Source: a virus. From it: a stretch of DNA of 64,000 nucleotides. The DNA lies in the IMG/VR virus record IMGVR_UViG_3300049259_000177, positions 32,001-96,000 of that record. The stretch is one strand, 5' to 3'. The translations under genes were made by a program, and so were the position numbers. The notes below the pieces were generated by a model that saw only the letters and a list, made by a program, of their open reading frames with translations, had not been told where the DNA came from and did no database searches. Below are positions 28,472-45,834 of this stretch, in pieces (the stretch's first letter is position 1; the number at the start of each line of letters is the position of its first letter).

Positions 28472-28544
28472 GGGTCCTCCTGATCACAGTGCGGTCGAGG
28501 GGCAGCGTAGGGCGGTCAGGGCACTAGCGTCACGTCGACAGTGC

Positions 28545-29297
28545 TTACGCGGCGGCCGTCCCGGCAAACAGGTCAACGACATCACGGACGTTGACCCCGT
28601 CGAAGACCGAGGAGTGGTCTCTGCCCGCGATGACACGCAGTGCCATGTGCGGGTCGTTGACCGCGTTCACGAATGCCTGCGACTGCGCCAGCGGCACGGT
28701 CGTGTCCGCGTCGCCGTGGTAGATGCGGACCGGCGGCAATCCCCGGTAGTTGGCAGGCTCGCCGATCGGGGCGTGACCGACGATCCCCGCCGCCCAACCA
28801 GCCGATCCGCCGTAGTCGGCCTCGATCTCGGGAGCATACGTCGCCTTGCCCACCGACGTGTCGTGGAAGTAGGCGAGATCGGTCGCGGGTGCGAACACAC
28901 ATGCCGCCTTGACCAGTGTCGGGTTGCGCTTCACCCAGTTCAGCGCCGCCAAGCCGCCCATCGACCAGCCGAGCACGCACACCTTCGGGCTCGCGACGTG
29001 GATCGTGTTGAGCAGGTAGTTGTAGGCGGCCGTCAGATCGGTCATCTCTGCGTCGTCAGCCCACGGCGTCGGCCCGCCAGCGTCGATCGACAGCACCGTG
29101 AATCCCGCGAGCGCCAGCGCCAGCGTGAATCCCCCGGACCCGCTACCCGCCGACTGGAACTGCAACGAGGTGCCGCCGTGGCCGTGGACGGCAATCACGC
29201 CGACGCTGCTCCCGTCCCGCTTGGCGCGTTTCGGTTCGGTCAGCACACTCGACTCGCCCGCGCTGTACGCACCGACCGCGTAGGCCGCGACGGTCAT
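28545..29297 (-). CDS. Alpha/beta hydrolase (esterase-like)
   Basis: HGHGG oxyanion region, GWSMGG nucleophile, HGDADTTVP Asp, DH His. Confidence 0.85.
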   Translation of the reverse strand: MTVAAYAVGAYSAGESSVLTEPKRAKRDGSSVGVIAVHGHGGTSLQFQSAGSGSGGFTLALALAGFTVLSIDAGGPTPWADDAEMTDLTAAYNYLLNTIHVASPKVCVLGWSMGGLAALNWVKRNPTLVKAACVFAPATDLAYFHDTSVGKATYAPEIEADYGGSAGWAAGIVGHAPIGEPANYRGLPPVRIYHGDADTTVPLAQSQAFVNAVNDPHMALRVIAGRDHSSVFDGVNVRDVVDLFAGTAAA

Positions 29298-36455: not shown

Positions 36456-39400
36456 TTACTCGCTAGCCCTTGACGCGAGGAACGACTTGGTCTCCGCCGC
36501 CCGGCCGCGCAACGCCTCGATGTCGATGGTCTCGCCGTCGCCTGCACCCTTCGTGACGACCGCGCTCGGCGCGTCCGTTGGGGGCGTCGTCAACGCATCC
36601 GGGTTGGAGTCGCCCGAAGCGTCAATCGAGACACCGGCCGCCTTGAGTACCGCGACGAGATGCTCGACGGCCGCACGCAGCCGCTCCTCGTTCGCGCCGG
36701 ACAGCACGCGACCAGCCTTAACCTCGGCTGCGAAGTCGTTGGCGATCTGCACCGACAGCGCAACCTGCTCGATGCTCTTGAGCGCGCCGAGCACGAGGTA
36801 CTGCGGGCCCGGTGACGTTTCGTCCTCGCCGTCGTCCGGTTCGTAGTCGTCGTTCTCGTCGCCGGTGCTGGTCGAGAGCACCTCGGCGGTCACCTCGATG
36901 ACGACGGGCAGCGGTGGCCCGAGAGTGACCGAGCCGTCGCCGTTGACGTTGTAGGTCAACTCGTAGGTCTCGCTCTTGCCGTCGTTCGGTCCGCTGTACG
37001 CGCACCGGCGTGCGATGACGCGGTCGTCGTAGGTGCCGACAACCTCGACGTAGTTCCATTCGCGGCGCGGCGGCCCTGCGTCCTCGCCATCACCGGACGG
37101 GATCTCGTCGCCGCGCAGTTGGTCGTTGAGCGTCCGGCGTAGCGCGTCCTGAGTAGCCTCGAACGACCCGGCGAGGAATGGATACTGCTTCGCGTCGACC
37201 GCCATGTCCGCACCTACCGCCTTCGTCGAGGCGTACTCGCCGATCTCCGCCTCGGGCATCCATGTGTCGAGCACGTCACTCGACTGCGGATGCTCAATCG
37301 GCGCCGGTCCGGCCGCGCCGCGCTGGCGCAGTGCGGCGAACGCCTTGGCCTGCTCGCCGTCCATGTGCTTGCCTGCGATCTCGACGGCGCGGTCGTAGGC
37401 GCCGTCCTCGTTCCAGCGGATCAGCGCTGCGCCGCCGCCGCGTTCGTACCACTGCACGAGTTGCTTGGCGCGGCGCTGATCTTCGACAGGGAATGCCTTG
37501 AACTCCTCGATCGCGTCAAGGTCGTCCTTGGTGACGTTCCACTCCTCCGGCAGCATGTCGACGGCGTCGATGGCGCGCGCGCGGCGGACGATCCAGCGCT
37601 TTACCTTCGGCTTCTCCTCGTCCTTCGCGCGCCCATACGCCTGGATCGCGTTCTTGAGGTCGTCGCGGTTGCCGATCGGATAGGGCTCGCGGTTGTCGCC
37701 AGCAGACACCGGCATCGTCGGCTTGCGGTGACGGCTAGCGGCGGACATCTTCGCGGCGATCAGACCGCCGGTGCCTTCGAGGTCGGGGATCTCGATGGTT
37801 CCGGCTTCGGCCTCGGCGAGCAGGGCCTTACCGGCGTGCGACTCGGCCTTTTTCTTGTCCCACTCAGCAACGGCGGCACATGCGGCGGCCTGGGCTTCCT
37901 TGCTGACCTTGACCTTGCCGCCGAACGCGCGCCCGGTGGCGCACATCTTTTTGCACCAGTTGACGGCGGTGGCGACGGCGACCGACTCGGGGCGACCCTT
38001 GTCGATGAGGTGGTGCGCGACCCGGCGCATGAGCATCGGCAGGCCGCCGACTTTCTTCACCCAGTTGTTGCCCTCGCCCAGCGGCGCGCGGGTGGACGCC
38101 GTGCCGGTCGGGTCGAACTTGGCCTCGGTGAGCACGATTGCGACCCAGTCATCGACGTCGGCCAGGATCGGCACGCGCCACTCGTGGCTATCGAGTGCCT
38201 TGACCTCGTCGTCGTCGGCCCACTCCTCGACGCCGACCTCACCGAACGCCTCGGCAAGTGCTTCGGGGGTGATCGAGGGCGCCATCTCGGCCAGTTCCTT
38301 GCGGACGATCTCCGCGACGCGCAGTCCGGCGACGGCATCCTCAACCTCGTCGAGATCGAGACCCTTGAGACCCTCCTCATGCAAGAACCGCTCGAACGCG
38401 GCTTCGACGTCTTCGTGCTCGTCGGCCATCGCGGCGAGCCGTGACTTGACGGCAAGCGTCCCAGATAGCGGCGCCGCGCCGAACAGCACCGGGCTGTACT
38501 CGAACAGTTCGAGTTCCTTGATGTGGCGGATGCCTTCCTTGTCGCGCACGCCCTTGCCGTCGGGCACGTGGTAACCGATCGACCACTCACACTCGCCGGT
38601 CTCGGAGAAGAACTTGACGTTCTCGTACGCGTCGCGGCCCTCGCGACTCTTGAGGTTGAACCGCATGCGCACGTAGAGCGCGCCCGCCGCCTTCGGCCAC
38701 GGCTGGCCGTCCTTGGTCTGGTCCGGCAGCCGGGGGTCGCCCGGCATCCACTCTTCGACGGCCTCGGTGCGCGCTACCCAGCGCCCCCAGTCATGAGAGT
38801 TGCCGGTGAAGTAGACCGACCCGTTGCGCCGGGCCAGCCACGTACCGGACGGAGTGGTCGGGCACCAGACGACGCCGTCGTGCGTCGTGAACACGTCCTG
38901 TCGGGCGACACGCGGCGGCTTGCCCGTCCGCTTCGCCTCCGCGATTGCGGCCAGTGGCTCGCAGGTGTTCCGGCGCAGCATCGTGACCGTGTTGCACGGG
39001 TTGTCCGGGTAGTGGCGGTTGGTCGAGGTGCGACACGTGTTCGTCGGGATACCGGCAAGGGCGCACGCCATCTCGAAGGCGCGCAGGCCGTGCTCGCTGC
39101 GCTGCGCCCAGCGGGCCGTGCCGCTGGCCTCGACGTGGCCGTCCCCGTCCATGCAGGTGTCGATGAGCAGGTGGAGTTGTGCGGCGGTCAGGGAGCACAG
39201 GAACTCCGGCAACGGGGCATTGCCCTCGCCGAGCACGGCCGCCACGGCCTCCGTCGGTCCCTTGTTGAGCCGGAACTCCATGCCGCGACCGTTGTTGCAG
39301 CGGTGCTCGTGGAAGCCGCCGGGGAACGCGGCGGTCAGCGCGCGGCGGATCGAGGCGCACTTGAGCGGGTTGACCGCGATCGACTGCGCGATTGTCAGGC

Positions 39401-40061
39401 GCGGTGTCGATACCGCGTTGCTCTGCGGGCCGAGGTGTCCCTCGTTCCACGCCCAGGCGACGACCTCGACGAACGCGTCCGACCACTTCGCTTCAACCGG
39501 CGCTTCGGTATTGGCGAGGCTGCGGATGATCCCGTCGTCGGCGTCCAGTTCGCGGGTGGTCCGCCAGGTGATCGCGTAACCGCCATCCGCGCTTTTGACG
39601 CGACGGCGTACCGGCCAGCGGTGGTCGAGCGTGGTTAGCGAGGAGAACCCGCTCGTCTCGATCAGCCGGACCTCGCGCGGTTCGGCGTCGAACACATTGA
39701 CGGCCAGCACCGGCTCGAACCGGGCCGTGAGCGTCTCAGGGTTGAGGGCGTAGGCGCGATCGGCGGCGGTCACCTCGTCGTAGCGGAGCCATCCGCGCTC
39801 GGTGAGGATCTCGGTCGCCTCGTCGGCACAGAAGACGCCCTTGGGCTTGCGCTTCGCCAGCGTCGCCTTGTAGGCGCCTGGAATGATGATGTCGTTGACT
39901 TCGTCCTTGATGCCGGTGACCGACACGAGCGCCTCGACGACGCCCGTCGAGTCGTTAGCAGCAACGAGGTCGGTGGTTGTCGCGTGGCTGGACGCTTTCT
40001 TCTCAAGGCCGGGGGGCGTGGTCGCCTCAGGTGCGTCGAGCACGCTGGTCCCCTGTCCCAC
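36456..40061 (-). CDS. HK97-type prohead protease with intein and long C-terminal scaffold/accessory domains
   Basis: D...DII.PGAY, spliced GVF/SHDW, WSIGY, IKELELFEYSPV.FGA. Confidence 0.88.
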   Translation of the reverse strand: MGQGTSVLDAPEATTPPGLEKKASSHATTTDLVAANDSTGVVEALVSVTGIKDEVNDIIIPGAYKATLAKRKPKGVFCADEATEILTERGWLRYDEVTAADRAYALNPETLTARFEPVLAVNVFDAEPREVRLIETSGFSSLTTLDHRWPVRRRVKSADGGYAITWRTTRELDADDGIIRSLANTEAPVEAKWSDAFVEVVAWAWNEGHLGPQSNAVSTPRLTIAQSIAVNPLKCASIRRALTAAFPGGFHEHRCNNGRGMEFRLNKGPTEAVAAVLGEGNAPLPEFLCSLTAAQLHLLIDTCMDGDGHVEASGTARWAQRSEHGLRAFEMACALAGIPTNTCRTSTNRHYPDNPCNTVTMLRRNTCEPLAAIAEAKRTGKPPRVARQDVFTTHDGVVWCPTTPSGTWLARRNGSVYFTGNSHDWGRWVARTEAVEEWMPGDPRLPDQTKDGQPWPKAAGALYVRMRFNLKSREGRDAYENVKFFSETGECEWSIGYHVPDGKGVRDKEGIRHIKELELFEYSPVLFGAAPLSGTLAVKSRLAAMADEHEDVEAAFERFLHEEGLKGLDLDEVEDAVAGLRVAEIVRKELAEMAPSITPEALAEAFGEVGVEEWADDDEVKALDSHEWRVPILADVDDWVAIVLTEAKFDPTGTASTRAPLGEGNNWVKKVGGLPMLMRRVAHHLIDKGRPESVAVATAVNWCKKMCATGRAFGGKVKVSKEAQAAACAAVAEWDKKKAESHAGKALLAEAEAGTIEIPDLEGTGGLIAAKMSAASRHRKPTMPVSAGDNREPYPIGNRDDLKNAIQAYGRAKDEEKPKVKRWIVRRARAIDAVDMLPEEWNVTKDDLDAIEEFKAFPVEDQRRAKQLVQWYERGGGAALIRWNEDGAYDRAVEIAGKHMDGEQAKAFAALRQRGAAGPAPIEHPQSSDVLDTWMPEAEIGEYASTKAVGADMAVDAKQYPFLAGSFEATQDALRRTLNDQLRGDEIPSGDGEDAGPPRREWNYVEVVGTYDDRVIARRCAYSGPNDGKSETYELTYNVNGDGSVTLGPPLPVVIEVTAEVLSTSTGDENDDYEPDDGEDETSPGPQYLVLGALKSIEQVALSVQIANDFAAEVKAGRVLSGANEERLRAAVEHLVAVLKAAGVSIDASGDSNPDALTTPPTDAPSAVVTKGAGDGETIDIEALRGRAAETKSFLASRASE
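38799..39830 (-). mobile_element. Intein (344 aa) with LAGLIDADG endonuclease in the prohead protease
   Basis: Starts CADEATEILTERGW, block B TLDHRW, ends FTGN followed by +1 Ser; motifs VVAWAWNEG and LIDTCMDGDG. Confidence 0.9.
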
Positions 40062-42240: not shown

Positions 42241-42894
42241 TCACGTAAGCGACTCCCACTCAACGATCTCGTAGCGGCCAAAGCCCTGCGACCGGGAGGC
42301 GCCGACGCCTTGCTGCTCGCCGGTCAGCCAGAGCATGCCCCACCTGTCGCGGGTGAGTTCCTCGGAGTCGGTGACGACGGTGAACGACACCTTGGCGTCG
42401 GTGACGTACTCCTCGTACTGGATGCCGGTGCCGCGCCAGGTGTGCACGAAGCGCTGGTTGATGCCAGACGCCTCGACGACACCGAGCGGGATCGTGTCTT
42501 CGACGACGAACACGTGCTCGGCGAAGTAGGACAGCGTGCCCTTACGACTCGGCCCCCAGCGGTCCTTAGGCCACCGGACGTTCGCGGCTTCCTTGATCGC
42601 GGCCTTCACCTGACGACCTTCGATGTAGAGCCCGTCGGCGTTGCGCTTGAACCCGTTGAGGTGCTTGAGACTGTCGACCTCGGCGATCGCTTCCTCGGCG
42701 GGGATGCCGCGCTCGGCCATCGTCGTCGCGACCATCTCGCGGATCAGGTCGTCCTTGTCGGCCATCTTCGTGCGTAGCCAACCCTCGGCGACCTTCGGGT
42801 CAGTTGGCACGCCACCGGCGAGCGTCGCGACGAGCAACGTCGCCCGGAAGCGATGCGGGTAAGCCTGCTCGCGCAGGTCATCGAACAGGGACAT
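42241..42894 (-). CDS. Stand-alone RAMP superfamily (Cas7-like) protein, 217 aa
   Basis: AGGAG RBS 8 nt before ATG; N-terminal beta strand followed by LAGGVP, YIEGRQVKAAIKEA helix, C-terminal G-rich loop GVGASRSQGFGRYEIVEW. Confidence 0.8.
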   Translation of the reverse strand: MSLFDDLREQAYPHRFRATLLVATLAGGVPTDPKVAEGWLRTKMADKDDLIREMVATTMAERGIPAEEAIAEVDSLKHLNGFKRNADGLYIEGRQVKAAIKEAANVRWPKDRWGPSRKGTLSYFAEHVFVVEDTIPLGVVEASGINQRFVHTWRGTGIQYEEYVTDAKVSFTVVTDSEELTRDRWGMLWLTGEQQGVGASRSQGFGRYEIVEWESLT

Positions 42895-42914
42895 CGTGGC
42901 GGCTCCTGTGGCTA

Positions 42915-43230
42915 GTCGGATGGGATGGGGAGGGCGGCCGAGGCGTGGGTGGGGGAGTCGGGCCGAGGCGGGCTGGGGTCGGCGGGGCAGGGGTGGGTCG
43001 GGAAGTCGGGCTGGGGCTGGGGAGACACGGGAAGTCGGGCTGGGTGGGGTCGGGAAGACGTGCGGTGCAGCGGGCAGGCATGGGTGGTCGGAGCGGGAGA
43101 GGGACGGGCTGGCGAGGAACGGGTAGGCGCGGGCAGACCTGGGTGGTCGGACGCGGAGAGGGCCGAATAGGGCGGGGTCGGGAAGGCATGTCGGAGTGGG
43201 AAGGGCGGGGAAGCCTAGCCTTGGGAAGTC
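42915..43230 (-). ncRNA. Seven-unit pentamer-periodic array [GAC-NN-(BCC-NN)n-CC], putative guide RNA array
   Basis: Units of 38, 44, 59, 53, 29, 48 and 42 nt delimited by CCGAC; 50 of 51 internal triplets end in C, none contains A, 32 are CCC. The repeat is seen; the RNA function is inferred. Confidence 0.7.
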
Positions 43231-43759
43231 AGGCGGCCTTGCCGACGATGCTGCGGTACATCGCGTCGTACTCCTCCTCGGTAAACACCTCCTCGGTGCG
43301 TCGGTCTCCGACGCGCTTGGCGACTGCCTTGTGGAACGCCTCGCGCATCTTCGCGACCGCTGCCGTCTCGTGATAGCGGCTGGCGACGTACATGTGGTCC
43401 GCACCGGTCATGTCGCCGACGCGGCGCCTCGTTCCGCCGTCGTCGATGGCGTAGACGACAGCGAAGTGGCTGAGCGCAGCGAGGTCACCACTGCCGACCG
43501 CGTCCGCGAAGGCACGTGGCTGCCGCCGGGCGAGAGCGGTCGAGCGGTCGTGGCGTAGCGCCAGCGAGAGATCCGACGTCAGGTAGCGGGCGGCATTGTC
43601 GGTCAGCCACGCCGTCAGTACCTCCGGGTTGCTGGCGCGGAGATCTCGGATGGCCTAGTCAGCCACGACGGCAGGCACGAAGTCGCCATCCGGGCGGGCG
43701 GCGTCGATTGCTGCCTGGATCGCGGGTGGGAACATGCCGTCTCCGTTCGGGGCGTTCAT
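43229..43759 (-). pseudogene. Accessory gene (~176 codons) with one in-frame TAG at 43655-43657
   Basis: Frame is continuous from ATG 43759/43735 to TGA 43229 apart from a single TAG. Confidence 0.7.
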
Positions 43760-43853: not shown

Positions 43854-45756
43854 TCACACGGCTCGGAGGTTGCCCCGACGGCCCGTTGCCGGGCGTGAGG
43901 CGCTCTCCTGCCAGTCCTCGGCGAGCGGGCCGGGGTCCAGCACCTTGCGAGCACGAGTAACGGCGACGTAGCGCAGCCGCAGTTCTTCCGGTGACGGTTC
44001 CTTGACCTCGCCGTCCTTGCCGGGCTTGGCCTCGAAGTCGTCGCCGATGCGGACGTTCTCCCACTCCCTGCCCTTCGCTTTGTGCGCGGTGGAGACGATC
44101 AGCGTGGCCGACGCCTCGGTGACGGCGCCGTCGAGCACGCCGAGCAGAGTCGGGCAGGAGAACTCGTTGATGAGCCGGACGAGGACCGCGAGGTCACTGC
44201 CGTCCGGGTCGCTGTCGACGTACTCCTCGACCATCGACCACGAGGTGAACAGGCTCAACTCGGGGAACGTCGTCGAGCCGTTGTCGATCAACTCCTGCGC
44301 GCCACGGATGAAGGCGCTCATCTGCTTGCCGCCGCCGACGAGGTGCACCGACGTGCCGTCGCGCTGCGCGTCGAGCGCGACCTTGAGGGCGCCCGCGTTG
44401 GTCCGGCACAGCACCGCGTCCGGCTTGTCGAGCGCGGCGACGGTGGAGAGGATCTGCGTGGTGCCCTTGATTCGCAGCGGGGTGTCCAACTGCGACAGGA
44501 AGCGGTTGGCCTCGGTGGCGATCGCCGGGCCGAAGCGGAACGACTGCGAGAGGTAGAGCACCTCGACGCCGGGCTCGCGGGAGAAGATCCCCATCGCGTC
44601 GATCGCGCCGCGCCACTCGTAGATGGCCTGGGCGCGGTCGCCGACGAAGACGCGCTGGCAGTGGGTCTGGCGGGCGACAACGCTCGCGATGACCGGGTCG
44701 GCGTCCTGCGCCTCGTCGAACAGGATGAAGTCGACGTCGAGGCGCGGGTTGCTCAACTGCCACATCTCCCTGCGACTCGGCGCGGCGACGGATGCCGAGC
44801 GTGTTGCCCTGCGTGCGCGTACGCCAGGTGGTCCGTCCGATCCGGTAGTCGTCCCCCCGTCGGGCGAGGTACACGACGTGGTTGCCGTCGGTCAGGTCGG
44901 CGTCGAGGCGCACCACGCACCGGTGTTCGGCCGTGTATGCGCTCGTGCGCCCGCGAGAGGTCGTCGCCCGCACGAGATCGCCGTCGTAGTGGCGCTGGCC
45001 GACCGCTGTGACCTTGCGGCCCTGACGGCGGATGGAACCGAGCCTGCTCGCAGCCGGGGTCCACGACATCACGTAGTCGCCTTCGCGGAGCGTCTCGATG
45101 GGCACCTCCTCGAACGACGAGCCGAGGTGGCCGCCACGGCTCACCACGCGGCGTACGAGCGTCCCGGTGGGCTGGCAGTCGTGTTGGAAGCGCAGTTGAC
45201 CGTCGGTGTCGTTCAGGTCGGCCCACGCCTTGCGGGCGAACGGGACAAGGTGGCGGGCGAGTTCGCGGTGGTTGGCGCCACGACGTTTGGTGACCTCGCC
45301 TTCGAGGCCCTCGATGAATGGCATGTGCGTGACGTCGATCTCGCGGTCGGCGGAGGAGCAGAACCGGGCGACCATCTGCATCGTGTAACGGGCGAGCACG
45401 TCCTTGGTGACGGTCTTCTCGCCGACCCGGATGCCCTCGTTGATGCCGATGATCTTCGCGGCTTGCCAGGCAGGGACGCGGGCGTTGGAGCGCAGCCGAT
45501 GGGCGTAGGTGCGGCCGACTGCCTTCATCGCGTAGGAGTGGGCCGTCCCGCAGACCATGTTCGAGGGGAAGGTCTGCTTCGCCTCACCGGCGATCGCGGC
45601 GTTGTAGGCGATGTACATGCCTCGGCGGCTCGGGGTAGCGCTCGCCATCAGTTTCAGTGTCGAGGTCTTTCCGGTGCCTGCACCGGCCTCCACGACGATG
45701 TTCTTGCGAGCGCGGAAGGCATCAACGATGGCCTGCTGCTCGGTGGTCGGGTTCAT
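43854..45756 (-). pseudogene. SF1 (UvrD/Rep-like) helicase disrupted by a truncated intein and frameshift
   Basis: Walker A AGAGTGKT in ORF 44194..45795; DEAQD, VGD..QAIYEWRGA, STAHKAKGREW and YVAVTRA in a different frame (43854..44765). Confidence 0.85.
44766..45177 (-). mobile_element. N-terminal intein remnant with the start of a GIY-YIG-like endonuclease
   Basis: CQPTGTLV...IETLREGDYV, block B TAEHRC, VVYLARRGDDYRIG; no C-terminal splicing motif. Confidence 0.8.
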
Positions 45757-45834
45757 TGCCCTGTCTCCTGTCCGGCGGGTCGCTCTCCCGCACAACCAAG
45801 ACCGTACACCCGCTTAGCGTGAGAGCGCAAGCGG
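45757..45834 (-). promoter_or_regulatory. Island promoter cassette driving the helicase operon
   Basis: 72-bp exact inverted repeat of 7328-7399; 3' part identical to 1108-1146. Confidence 0.85.

What the first reader, a model, noticed from the sequence alone, without database searches (positions are those of the whole stretch)
42241..43230. Solo RAMP/Cas7-like gene coupled to a non-CRISPR pentamer-coded array: candidate phage RNA-guided system
Seen: a 217-aa protein with RAMP hallmarks (G-rich loop GVGASRSQGFGRY, GRQVKAAIKEA helix) starts ~20 nt after a non-coding array on the same strand. I recognised no cas1/2/5/6/8/10 gene or classical repeat-spacer array in the window. Established: Cas7-type RAMPs polymerise along guide RNA with a fixed nucleotide step per subunit. 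Inference: the protein oligomerises on the array RNA at one subunit per 5 nt, gripping the constant triplet and presenting the variable dinucleotide for target recognition, perhaps against competing phages or host genes. From memory (unverified), this resembles the recently reported phage VIPR architecture of a solo RAMP plus GGY/NN repeats. Here the sense-strand constant is CCC/BCC with CCGAC boundaries, so it would be a different code variant.
Basis: partly seen in the sequence, partly recalled or inferred. Interest (0 to 1): 0.97.

Follow-up and report, generated by a model that had tools for sequence, protein, structure and literature searches.

The report
Actinophage VIPR system, C-anchored guide array
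A large phage of actinobacteria carries a VIPR system, a CRISPR-related RNA-guided silencer first described in 2026, whose guides use pyrimidine-C instead of G-G-pyrimidine as fixed letters; its two longest guides spell conserved motifs of integrase genes of rival mobile elements.

Summary
Gene 42241-42894 (-) encodes a 217-aa RAMP. Its AF2 model (pLDDT 79.6) hits only Csm3/Cas7 chains. A profile of its clade finds one place in the Escherichia phage SUSP1 genome: the characterised vipr gene (E 3e-4).

The spacer 42915-43227 holds 11 units on the gene's strand, written (N N c Y C)n + GAC. In about 45 related loci the CGAC-to-CGAC distances are quantised at 5n+3, and 310 of 324 clean units lie on vipr's strand. 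A conserved ~180-aa helper gene precedes the array in more than 40 loci. In this window that helper carries an in-frame TAG.

So this is a VIPR system (bioRxiv, April-October 2026), not a new class.

Read with the published 1-nt-skip rule:
- Unit 4 spells ETLDTYAHLW, the catalytic-tyrosine motif of tyrosine integrases: 18 hits in 401 genomes against 0 for the control.
- Unit 11 spells IIDREVW(D/E) of large serine recombinases: 30 exact IMG/VR hits against 7, 9 and 18 for the controls.
- The phage record holds neither kind of integrase and no self-target.

Which strand is the guide RNA is unproven. I favour the sense, C-anchored RNA (about 70%). Earlier notes of this scan recorded the same clade on other DNA.

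The parts
42241..42894 (-). vipr homologue: 217-aa RAMP/Cas7-like protein with G-loop GVGASRSQGFGRY
   Evidence: ORF. AF2 model pLDDT 79.6. Foldseek PDB gave 109 hits at E<=1e-3; the listed top hits are all Csm3/Cmr4/type VII Cas7. BLASTP to SUSP1 Vipr E 3e-4. The clade profile finds only the vipr gene in the SUSP1 genome, E 3.2e-4. The family holds 1452 word-index hits and 580 clusters at 50% identity.
42903..42907 (-). AGGAG ribosome-binding site of vipr, between the last GAC and the ATG
   Evidence: Read from the sequence.
42915..43227 (-). Guide array: 11 units of NNcYC pentamers, each closed by GAC
   Evidence: Unit parse. Family grammar and logo. Unique in the genome.
43087..43145 (-). 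Unit 4 (11 pentamers). With one base skipped, its dinucleotides spell R-[DE]-T-L-[DE]-T-Y-A-[HQ]-L-[WC], the catalytic-Tyr motif of tyrosine integrases
   Evidence: One exact 20/20 hit in IMG/VR, inside a PF00589 integrase and in frame. 18 hits with up to 2 mismatches in 401 Actinomycetes genomes against 0 for the control; 17 lie in frame on RLGH..ETL[DNQ]TY.HL[WF]P, one of them with Phe for the Leu.
42915..42956 (-). Unit 11 (8 pentamers). Its dinucleotides spell I-I-D-R-E-V-W-[DE], a conserved motif at the end of the Recombinase domain of large serine recombinases
   Evidence: 30 exact IMG/VR hits, against 7 (pattern backwards), 9 (2-nt skip) and 18 (0-nt skip). At least 19 of the 30 lie in frame in Resolvase+Recombinase+Zn-ribbon proteins. 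Only the 1-nt-skip hits form one large homologous cluster.
43049..43086 (-). Unit 5 (7 regular pentamers); no target assigned
   Evidence: Parse. The 14-base pattern gave mostly noise.
43190..43227 (-). Unit 1 (7 pentamers, two of them atypical NNGGC); it starts at the TGAC that holds the helper's stop codon
43229..43759 (-). Helper (vap-like) gene, about 176 codons, interrupted by an in-frame TAG at 43655-43657 at a position where intact homologues have Leu
   Evidence: Translation. Homologues sit upstream of the array on the same strand in more than 40 loci. Alignment A2. AF2 pLDDT 90.8, all-helical. No Pfam or PHROG family and no structural match. No tRNA in the genome, so no suppressor.

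Best explanation
This is a VIPR-family RNA-guided DNA-silencing module of a large actinophage that is probably lytic.

Shown:
- A Vipr-type RAMP gene sits directly behind an array of 11 guide units.
- Each unit is a run of pentamers with two free letters and three constrained ones (c-Y-C on the gene strand), and a 3-nt GAC resets the phase.
- The order helper-array-vipr is conserved in relatives.
- The two longest guides, read two letters on and one off, spell conserved motifs of the two integrase superfamilies.

Inferred:
- The operon is transcribed on the minus strand through the array.
- One Vipr protomer binds each pentamer of the C-rich sense RNA, buries the c-Y-C triplet and presents NN.
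- The filament binds double-stranded DNA with every third base skipped, so the wobble position is ignored, and it blocks transcription.
- During infection this silences integrase/excision recombinase genes of resident prophages, satellites or ICEs (or of co-infecting temperate phages), so that they cannot excise, replicate or integrate at the phage's expense.
- GAC (RAC across the clade) marks guide ends, either by breaking the filament register or as a processing site.
For: Protein and family:
- RAMP fold.
- Homology to the tested SUSP1 Vipr.

Array:
- Quantised 5n+3 units. Logo: positions 1-2 near uniform, position 3 C 53%, position 4 Y 80%, position 5 C 92%.
- 310 of 324 clean units lie on vipr's strand.
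- In 43 loci the array fills the helper-vipr spacer, from a median 33 nt after the helper's stop to 25 nt before vipr's start. That leaves no room for separate promoters.

Sense-strand reading:
- Locus L058 holds a canonical Vipr (G-loop GIGRWRPR) with GGC/NN arrays and an ASRSQ-type RAMP with a C-type array. All are tightly packed on one strand.
- G-loop alignment: SUSP1 D177 and W178, which contact G1 and G2 in the published structure, are Ala and Ser here. R179 of the pyrimidine pocket is kept.
- On the sense strand the base just 5' of NN is the near-invariant C, matching the published Y3 position.

Targets:
- Unit 4.
- Unit 11.
- No self-target, and no PF00589 or PF07508 gene in the phage record.

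Published parallels:
- The 1-nt-skip rule and dsDNA silencing (10.64898/2026.04.26.720920).
- SUSP1 silences a satellite's excision recombinase at active-site codons, wobble-aligned (10.64898/2026.10.15.759431).
Against: - No transcript data exist, so the guide strand is inferred.
- The first VIPR paper lists only G-containing consensus forms (GGY/NN, NNNGG, YNNNG, NNNNG). The antisense strand of this array reads G-R-g-N-N.
- A small subclade (L040, L041) has the upstream array inverted relative to vipr.
- The helper gene is broken by TAG in this record, and 7 of the 11 units have phase slips or are very short. The locus may therefore be impaired.
- Only 2 of the 11 units could be given a target. 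Unit 5 was inconclusive.
- 302 guides from relatives showed no excess of matches in the small local database and no recurrent motifs.
- Sequence similarity to SUSP1 Vipr is weak (hhalign probability about 1% against single sequences).
Confidence: 0.7

Rival explanations
1. It is the same VIPR system, but the guides are transcribed from the plus (G-rich) strand, antisense to vipr, as G-R-g/NN ('NNNGG'-type) vrRNAs. The C-rich sense RNA is only the vipr leader.
For: - The published consensus forms all contain G, including NNNGG.
- The plus strand reads GTC(GGNNN)n.
- In L040 and L041 the G strand of the upstream array runs in vipr's direction.
- The dsDNA target pattern is the same for either strand, so the target hits do not discriminate.
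Against: - The array abuts the helper's stop and vipr's RBS in 43 loci. An antisense promoter would have to lie inside vipr, and the terminator inside the helper.
- 95% co-orientation holds for both upstream and downstream arrays.
- In L058 the C-type array lies between an ORF stop and a G-type array on one strand.
- The two published G-contacting G-loop residues are replaced.
- The position next to NN would be 71% purine, whereas the published pocket excludes purines.
- From my own knowledge: GGGNN repeats would favour RNA G-quadruplexes.
Confidence: 0.27
2. The module in this particular phage is decaying or non-functional: the helper is truncated by an amber codon and many units are short or irregular. 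The array would then be a relic rather than a working weapon.
For: - TAG at 43655-43657, at a conserved Leu position.
- No suppressor tRNA.
- Unit lengths 13, 15, 8, 19 and 21 nt, and 1-nt slips in units 4, 7, 9 and 11.
- In SUSP1 both Vipr and Vap1 are needed in a natural infection.
Against: - vipr is intact and keeps every invariant family residue.
- The two long guides still match their motifs exactly.
- Only 38% of inter-CGAC distances in the family are exactly 5n+3, so the irregularity is typical.
- The TAG could be an assembly error in a metagenomic record.
Confidence: 0.2
3. The RNP targets RNA (integrase mRNA) in the manner of a type III Cas7 backbone, rather than double-stranded DNA.
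For: - The closest solved folds are Csm3/Cmr4.
- In both decoded guides the sense C-type RNA would be complementary to the target's coding strand, and so to its mRNA.
- Codon-prefix statistics suggest about 70% of the clade's guides share that polarity.
Against: - Canonical VIPR binds dsDNA on either strand.
- The polarity bias is partial.
- Csm3 catalytic residues were not examined here.
- A gapped hybrid with one skipped base per three has been described for DNA triplex/R-loop formation.
Confidence: 0.08
4. The tract is not a guide array at all. It would be a C-rich low-complexity leader or a set of DNA binding sites, and the motif matches are chance.
For: - High-GC genomes produce skewed tracts.
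- The single exact IMG/VR hit for unit 4 has an expectation by chance of roughly 0.03-0.1, scaled.
Against: - 18 against 0 hits, 17 of them in frame on one motif.
- 30 against 7, 9 and 18 hits, with at least 19 in one protein family.
- Quantised units and hypervariable NN across about 45 loci, always beside the same RAMP gene.
Confidence: 0.02

Closest known systems
Type II VIPR of Escherichia phage SUSP1 (Vipr + Vap1 + four vrRNAs); bioRxiv 10.64898/2026.04.26.720920, .720927 and 10.64898/2026.10.15.759431
   Same: - Phage-borne.
- A small RAMP with a G-loop and a partner gene.
- A 5-nt repeat of three constrained plus two free letters, beside the gene and on its strand.
- Targets read with one base skipped, aligned to the wobble position.
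- A guide aimed at a recombinase needed by a rival element.
- No cas genes and no CRISPR array.
   Different: - The fixed letters on the gene strand are c-Y-C, not G-G-Y.
- The G-loop reads A-S where SUSP1 has D-W.
- Guides are short (mostly 6-8 pentamers in the clade) and packed head to tail. Only GAC separates them, instead of about 100-nt vrRNAs with a structured 3' tail and spacers (against 36-38).
- Gene order is helper-array-vipr.
- The helper has no detectable similarity to any known fold.
Non-canonical VIPR arrays in the genomic language-model survey (bioRxiv 10.64898/2026.10.21.760802: GAC/NN, CAC/NN, WGT/NN, TGH/NN) and the 'NNNGG / YNNNG / NNNNG' and 'staggered array' variants of the first VIPR paper
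   Same: A Vipr-like fold next to 5-nt arrays whose fixed triplet departs from GGY. This shows the fixed letters can vary within the superfamily.
   Different: The main texts held here name no C-Y-C or CCC triplet and no 3-nt RAC punctuation. The figures and tables that might list this clade could not be read, so prior description cannot be excluded.
Cas7/Csm3/Cmr4 backbone subunits of class 1 CRISPR effectors
   Same: RRM/RAMP core, G-rich loop and thumb-like hairpin. One subunit binds per fixed RNA step.
   Different: - 5-nt rather than 6-nt step.
- No Cas5, Cas6, Cas8, Cas10 or Cas1, and no repeat-spacer array.
- The guide is read in gapped form.

Membership tests
VIPR system | Vipr protein with RAMP fold (RRM core, glycine-rich loop, thumb) | tested here: met
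   AF2 model pLDDT 79.6. Foldseek PDB gave 109 hits at E<=1e-3; the listed top hits are all Csm3/Cmr4/Cas7, best E 3e-7. The G-loop G-x-G-A-S-R-S-Q-G-x-G is nearly invariant.
VIPR system | Sequence homology to an experimentally characterised Vipr | tested here: met
   BLASTP to SUSP1 Vipr E 3e-4 over 136 residues, including helix 1 and the G-loop. The clade profile A3 hits only the vipr gene in a six-frame search of the 90.7-kb SUSP1 genome, E 3.2e-4. The signal is weak: hhalign against single sequences gives E 0.04-0.08.
VIPR system | Adjacent non-coding array of pentamers with three constrained and two hypervariable positions | tested here: met
   The same holds in about 45 homologous loci.
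VIPR system | Fixed triplet is GGY (canonical code) | tested here: not met
   The gene strand reads c-Y-C. The opposite strand reads G(92%)-R(80%)-g(53%), with a purine bias where Y is expected. Published variants show that this feature is not obligatory for the superfamily.
VIPR system | Targets follow the 1-nt-skip (xNN) rule, usually wobble-aligned in coding sequence | tested here: met
   Unit 4: 18 hits against 0 for the control, 17 in frame. Unit 11: 30 hits against 7 (backwards), 9 (2-nt skip) and 18 (0-nt skip); only the 1-nt-skip hits cluster in one family. Position 3 is not read as the wobble base: it would turn both Ile codons of unit 11 into ATG.
VIPR system | vrRNA is expressed, co-purifies with Vipr, and carries a conserved structured 3' tail | not testable with these tools
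   No transcript or binding data. At sequence level no tail is seen, only GAC/RAC punctuation. No Rfam family matched.
VIPR system | Accessory (vap) gene in the locus | tested here: inconclusive
   A conserved helper precedes the array in more than 40 loci, but it matches no Pfam or PHROG family and no solved fold. Its relation to vap1-6 cannot be checked. In this window it is interrupted by TAG.
VIPR system | Viral or proviral context, with no cas genes and no CRISPR array | tested here: met
   The record is a 114.6-kb IMG/VR virus record with a prohead protease and a DNA helicase. No Cas1. No CRISPR-like repeats.
Class 1 CRISPR-Cas effector (Cas7 backbone) | Cas7 accompanied by Cas5/Cas8/Cas10 or Cas6, and a repeat-spacer array | tested here: not met
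   No repeat-spacer array and no Cas1. Neighbouring genes are the helper, small unknown ORFs and a helicase. Other cas families were not searched one by one.

The most novel reading that the evidence does not exclude
The large 'ASRSQ' clade of Vipr proteins reads a second, pyrimidine-anchored guide code: sense-strand (NN-c-Y-C)n guides punctuated only by a 3-nt RAC, with no structured tail. Recognition would use a remodelled G-loop (Ala-Ser in place of Asp-Trp) together with a helper of unknown fold. In this phage the code is aimed at conserved motifs of both the tyrosine and the serine integrase superfamilies.
Probability: 0.55. Interest if true: 0.6.

Novelty: new variant of a known kind. 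Interest (0 to 1): 0.45.

Why it matters
VIPR is a months-old class of minimal RNA-guided DNA binders. If this widespread actinobacterial clade really uses C-anchored sense guides, two things follow. First, the protein-RNA 'scaffold code' can be changed while the gapped target code (two read, one skipped) stays the same. That bears on how the scaffold is recognised and on designing orthogonal tools. Second, this array shows what such phages aim at. One guide sits on the catalytic tyrosine motif of tyrosine integrases and another on a conserved motif of large serine recombinases. These sites are hard to mutate, which extends to actinophages the published SUSP1 case of silencing a satellite's recombinase.

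Tried and rejected
- Pfam, PHROGs and PDB sequence searches of the RAMP gave nothing useful. Only the fold and the profile searches placed it.
- A 200-nt Fourier scan missed the array because of the phase resets. Lag autocorrelation found it.
- I looked for a conserved gene downstream of vipr and found none, at most 6 of 70 loci. The conserved partner lies upstream.
- I scored 302 guides from relatives against about 600 kb of local sequence under 0-, 1- and 2-nt skip. Real and shuffled guides were indistinguishable, because the guides are too short for that test.
- No decoded peptide 5-mers recur among the relatives' guides, and none of them spells either integrase motif.
Its hits were mostly out of frame. 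A cluster of 5 on an NVVAQIWL motif is not enough to call.
- Promoter and terminator scans in the window and in low-GC relatives were uninformative.
- Rfam found nothing in the region.
- The helper's fold search gave no match (Foldseek E>1; best VIA Z 4.6).
- The supplements of the VIPR papers are not held, so I could not check whether this clade or this phage is listed there.

Full report
**What is there**

The minus strand carries a 217-aa ORF (42241-42894). It contains the quoted GRQVKAAIKEA helix and GVGASRSQGFGRY loop and is preceded by an AGGAG site.

Between its start and the stop codon of the next upstream gene lies a 313-nt tract (42915-43227). On the gene strand this tract is 56% C and 18% G.
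- It holds the two best lag-5/10 autocorrelation windows of the 64-kb window.
- It has the highest GTCGG density and the strongest G/C skew of the entire 114.6-kb genome.
- CCGAC occurs 11 times against 1.2 expected.

A coherent Fourier scan misses the tract, because the phase is reset at each GAC.

**The protein**

Pfam, PHROGs and PDB sequence searches are silent. The family is nevertheless large: 1452 hits in the word-index search and 580 clusters at 50% identity. Members occur in Streptomyces, Streptosporangium, Nocardiopsis, Actinomadura and other genomes, and in many IMG/VR contigs.

An AF2 model built on 30 homologues has pLDDT 79.6. Foldseek against PDB returns 109 chains at E<=1e-3. 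The listed top hits are all Csm3, Cmr4 or type VII Cas7. The RAMP claim therefore holds.

**Is VIPR real, and is this a member?**

VIPR systems consist of the Vipr RAMP, vap genes and vrRNAs of alternating GGY/NN. Targets are read with one base skipped, and the RNP binds dsDNA and silences it. They were described in bioRxiv 10.64898/2026.04.26.720920 and .720927.

I fetched Escherichia phage SUSP1 (KT454805). Its vipr gene is at 28474-29061, with GGTNN arrays on the same strand on both sides.
- BLASTP between the two proteins gives E 3e-4 over helix 1 through the G-loop.
- A profile of the window's clade, searched in six frames over the whole SUSP1 genome, finds one place only: the vipr gene (E 3.2e-4).
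- hhalign against single sequences is weak.

The link therefore rests on fold, the unique profile hit and locus architecture taken together.

**Array grammar**

In 60 viral and 15 genomic loci that encode homologues, the strongest 5-nt-periodic 100-nt window usually lies just upstream of the gene and is about 50% C on its strand.

Distances between successive CGAC peak at 28, 33, 38, 43, 48 and 53, that is 5n+3. Aligned units give this pentamer logo:
- positions 1 and 2 close to uniform;
- position 3 C 53%;
- position 4 pyrimidine 80%;
- position 5 C 92%.

Each unit is closed by GAC, and the next often opens with T-A.

Of 324 clean units, 310 lie on vipr's strand. Distant low-GC members (25-31% identity, same GASRSQG loop) have the same NNNCC pentamers on the gene strand, with delimiters TTGCAAC or TGYGAC. 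The shared punctuation is therefore R-A-C.

The window's own array parses into 11 units of 38, 13, 31, 59, 38, 15, 29, 8, 19, 21 and 42 nt. Several carry 1-nt slips near their 3' ends.

**Partner gene**

No gene downstream of vipr is conserved. An upstream gene of about 180 codons is conserved on the same strand in more than 40 loci, giving the order helper-array-vipr.

In 43 such loci the array fills the spacer (median 616 nt). It runs from a median 33 nt after the helper's stop to 25 nt before vipr's start.

The helper folds confidently as an all-helical protein (pLDDT 90.8). It matches no Pfam or PHROG family and no solved structure.

In the window the helper runs from 43759 to 43229 but has an in-frame TAG at 43655-43657, where intact homologues have Leu. 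The genome encodes no tRNA. This may be a real nonsense mutation or an assembly error.

**Which strand is the guide?**

This is not settled. I favour the sense, C-rich RNA, for five reasons.
1. The array abuts the flanking genes in an apparent operon. vipr can hardly be expressed without transcribing the array, and an antisense unit would need its promoter inside vipr.
2. Co-orientation holds for arrays upstream and downstream of the gene.
3. Locus L058 carries two systems packed on one strand without gaps: a canonical Vipr (loop GIGRWRPR) with GGC/NN arrays, and an ASRSQ-type RAMP followed at its stop codon by a C-type array.
4. In the published structure G1 and G2 are held by D177 and W178 of the G-loop, and Y3 by R179 in a pocket that excludes purines. 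Here those residues align to Ala, Ser and Arg.
5. On the sense strand the base just 5' of NN is the near-invariant C. On the antisense strand that position would be 71% purine.

Against this:
- The first paper lists only G-containing consensus forms, including NNNGG.
- A small subclade (L040, L041) has the upstream array inverted, with a 110-335-nt spacer that holds a conserved hairpin block.
- There are no transcript data.

I put the sense reading near 70%.

**Targets**

The double-stranded target pattern is the same whichever strand is the RNA.

Unit 4 (43087-43145):
- With one base skipped it gives R-[DE]-T-L-[DE]-T-Y-A-[HQ]-L-[WC].
- The 20-base pattern has one exact match in IMG/VR. It lies in frame on ETLDTYAHLW of a 383-aa PF00589 integrase.
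- With up to 2 mismatches it has 18 matches in 401 genomes of the class of a Streptomyces host. The same pattern read backwards has none.
- 17 of the 18 lie in frame on RLGH..ETL[DNQ]TY.HL[WF]P, one of them with Phe in place of the Leu. This is the box II motif with the catalytic tyrosine.

Unit 11 (42915-42956):
- It gives I-I-D-R-E-V-W-[DE].
- Its 16-base pattern has 30 exact IMG/VR matches. The controls give 7 (backwards), 9 (2-nt skip) and 18 (0-nt skip).
- At least 19 of the 30 are in frame on GEH.AIIDREVW at the end of the Recombinase domain of Resolvase+Recombinase+Zn-ribbon proteins.
- Only the 1-nt-skip hits form one large homologous cluster, 17 of the 30.

The phage record (CheckV 88% complete) holds no match to either pattern and no PF00589 or PF07508 gene.

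This mirrors the published finding that SUSP1 vrRNA4 silences a satellite's excision recombinase at active-site codons, with the skipped base on the wobble position (10.64898/2026.10.15.759431).

Limits of the target evidence:
- Only two units could be assigned. Unit 5 was inconclusive.
- Short guides from relatives showed no excess in a small local database and no shared motifs.
- Codon-prefix statistics suggest about 70% of the clade's guides have the polarity seen in these two. That is a bias, not a rule.

**Novelty**

The class is known. Variant fixed triplets (GAC, CAC, WGT, TGH) were reported in October 2026 (10.64898/2026.10.21.760802). The main texts I could read name no c-Y-C code, no RAC punctuation and no helper of this kind. 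Their figures and tables are not held. Earlier notes of this scan recorded the same clade on other DNA.

I therefore rate it a new variant of a known kind, of moderate interest. The strand question and the paired integrase targets are the parts worth an experiment.

Noticed in passing
L058:1985-3850 (IMG/VR contig 3300033150_000513): One locus holds two RAMP genes on one strand: a canonical Vipr (loop GIGRWRPR) and an ASRSQ-type. It also holds both GGC/NN arrays with GGCAAG..AAGGA tails and a C-type NNNCC array with GCGAC delimiters. This is a natural pairing of two guide codes.
   Followed up: partly
L040:2097-2695 and L041:2560-2992: A subclade has the upstream array inverted relative to vipr. 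A spacer separates the two and carries a block identical in both loci, with a small hairpin (TCCGG-AAGGTC-CCGGA). It may be a promoter or leader for a divergent array transcript, or a 3' tail.
   Followed up: partly
window 43655-43657: There is an in-frame TAG in the conserved helper gene, at a position where homologues have Leu. The genome has no tRNA genes. It is either a pseudogene or an assembly error.
   Followed up: partly
window 36456-40061 (-): A 1201-aa ORF has a prohead protease (Peptidase_S78) domain from residue 462. Near the N-terminus there is an insertion of roughly 340 residues that starts with Cys and ends in ...GNSH, which looks like an intein.
   Followed up: no
window 43854-45795 (-): A UvrD-like DNA helicase appears as two overlapping ORFs covering its N-terminal and C-terminal halves (both phrog_1967). 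Between them lies an intein-like stretch that begins with Cys. It may be an intein, with or without a frameshift.
   Followed up: no
window 43049-43086 (unit 5) versus 43087-43145 (unit 4): Units 4 and 5 share their plus-strand 3' ends (GC-CA-xT-TG, that is A-H-[LM]-W) and about 34 nt of flanking letters. They look like diverged duplicates. Among 120 hits for unit 5, five fall in frame on an NVVAQIWL motif.
   Followed up: partly
G000 as a whole (114,594 bases; the window is 32001-96000): A large actinophage record with only distant DNA similarity to Gordonia phages (GMA6 and relatives). It has no tRNA genes and no integrase of either kind, so it is probably lytic.
   Followed up: partly
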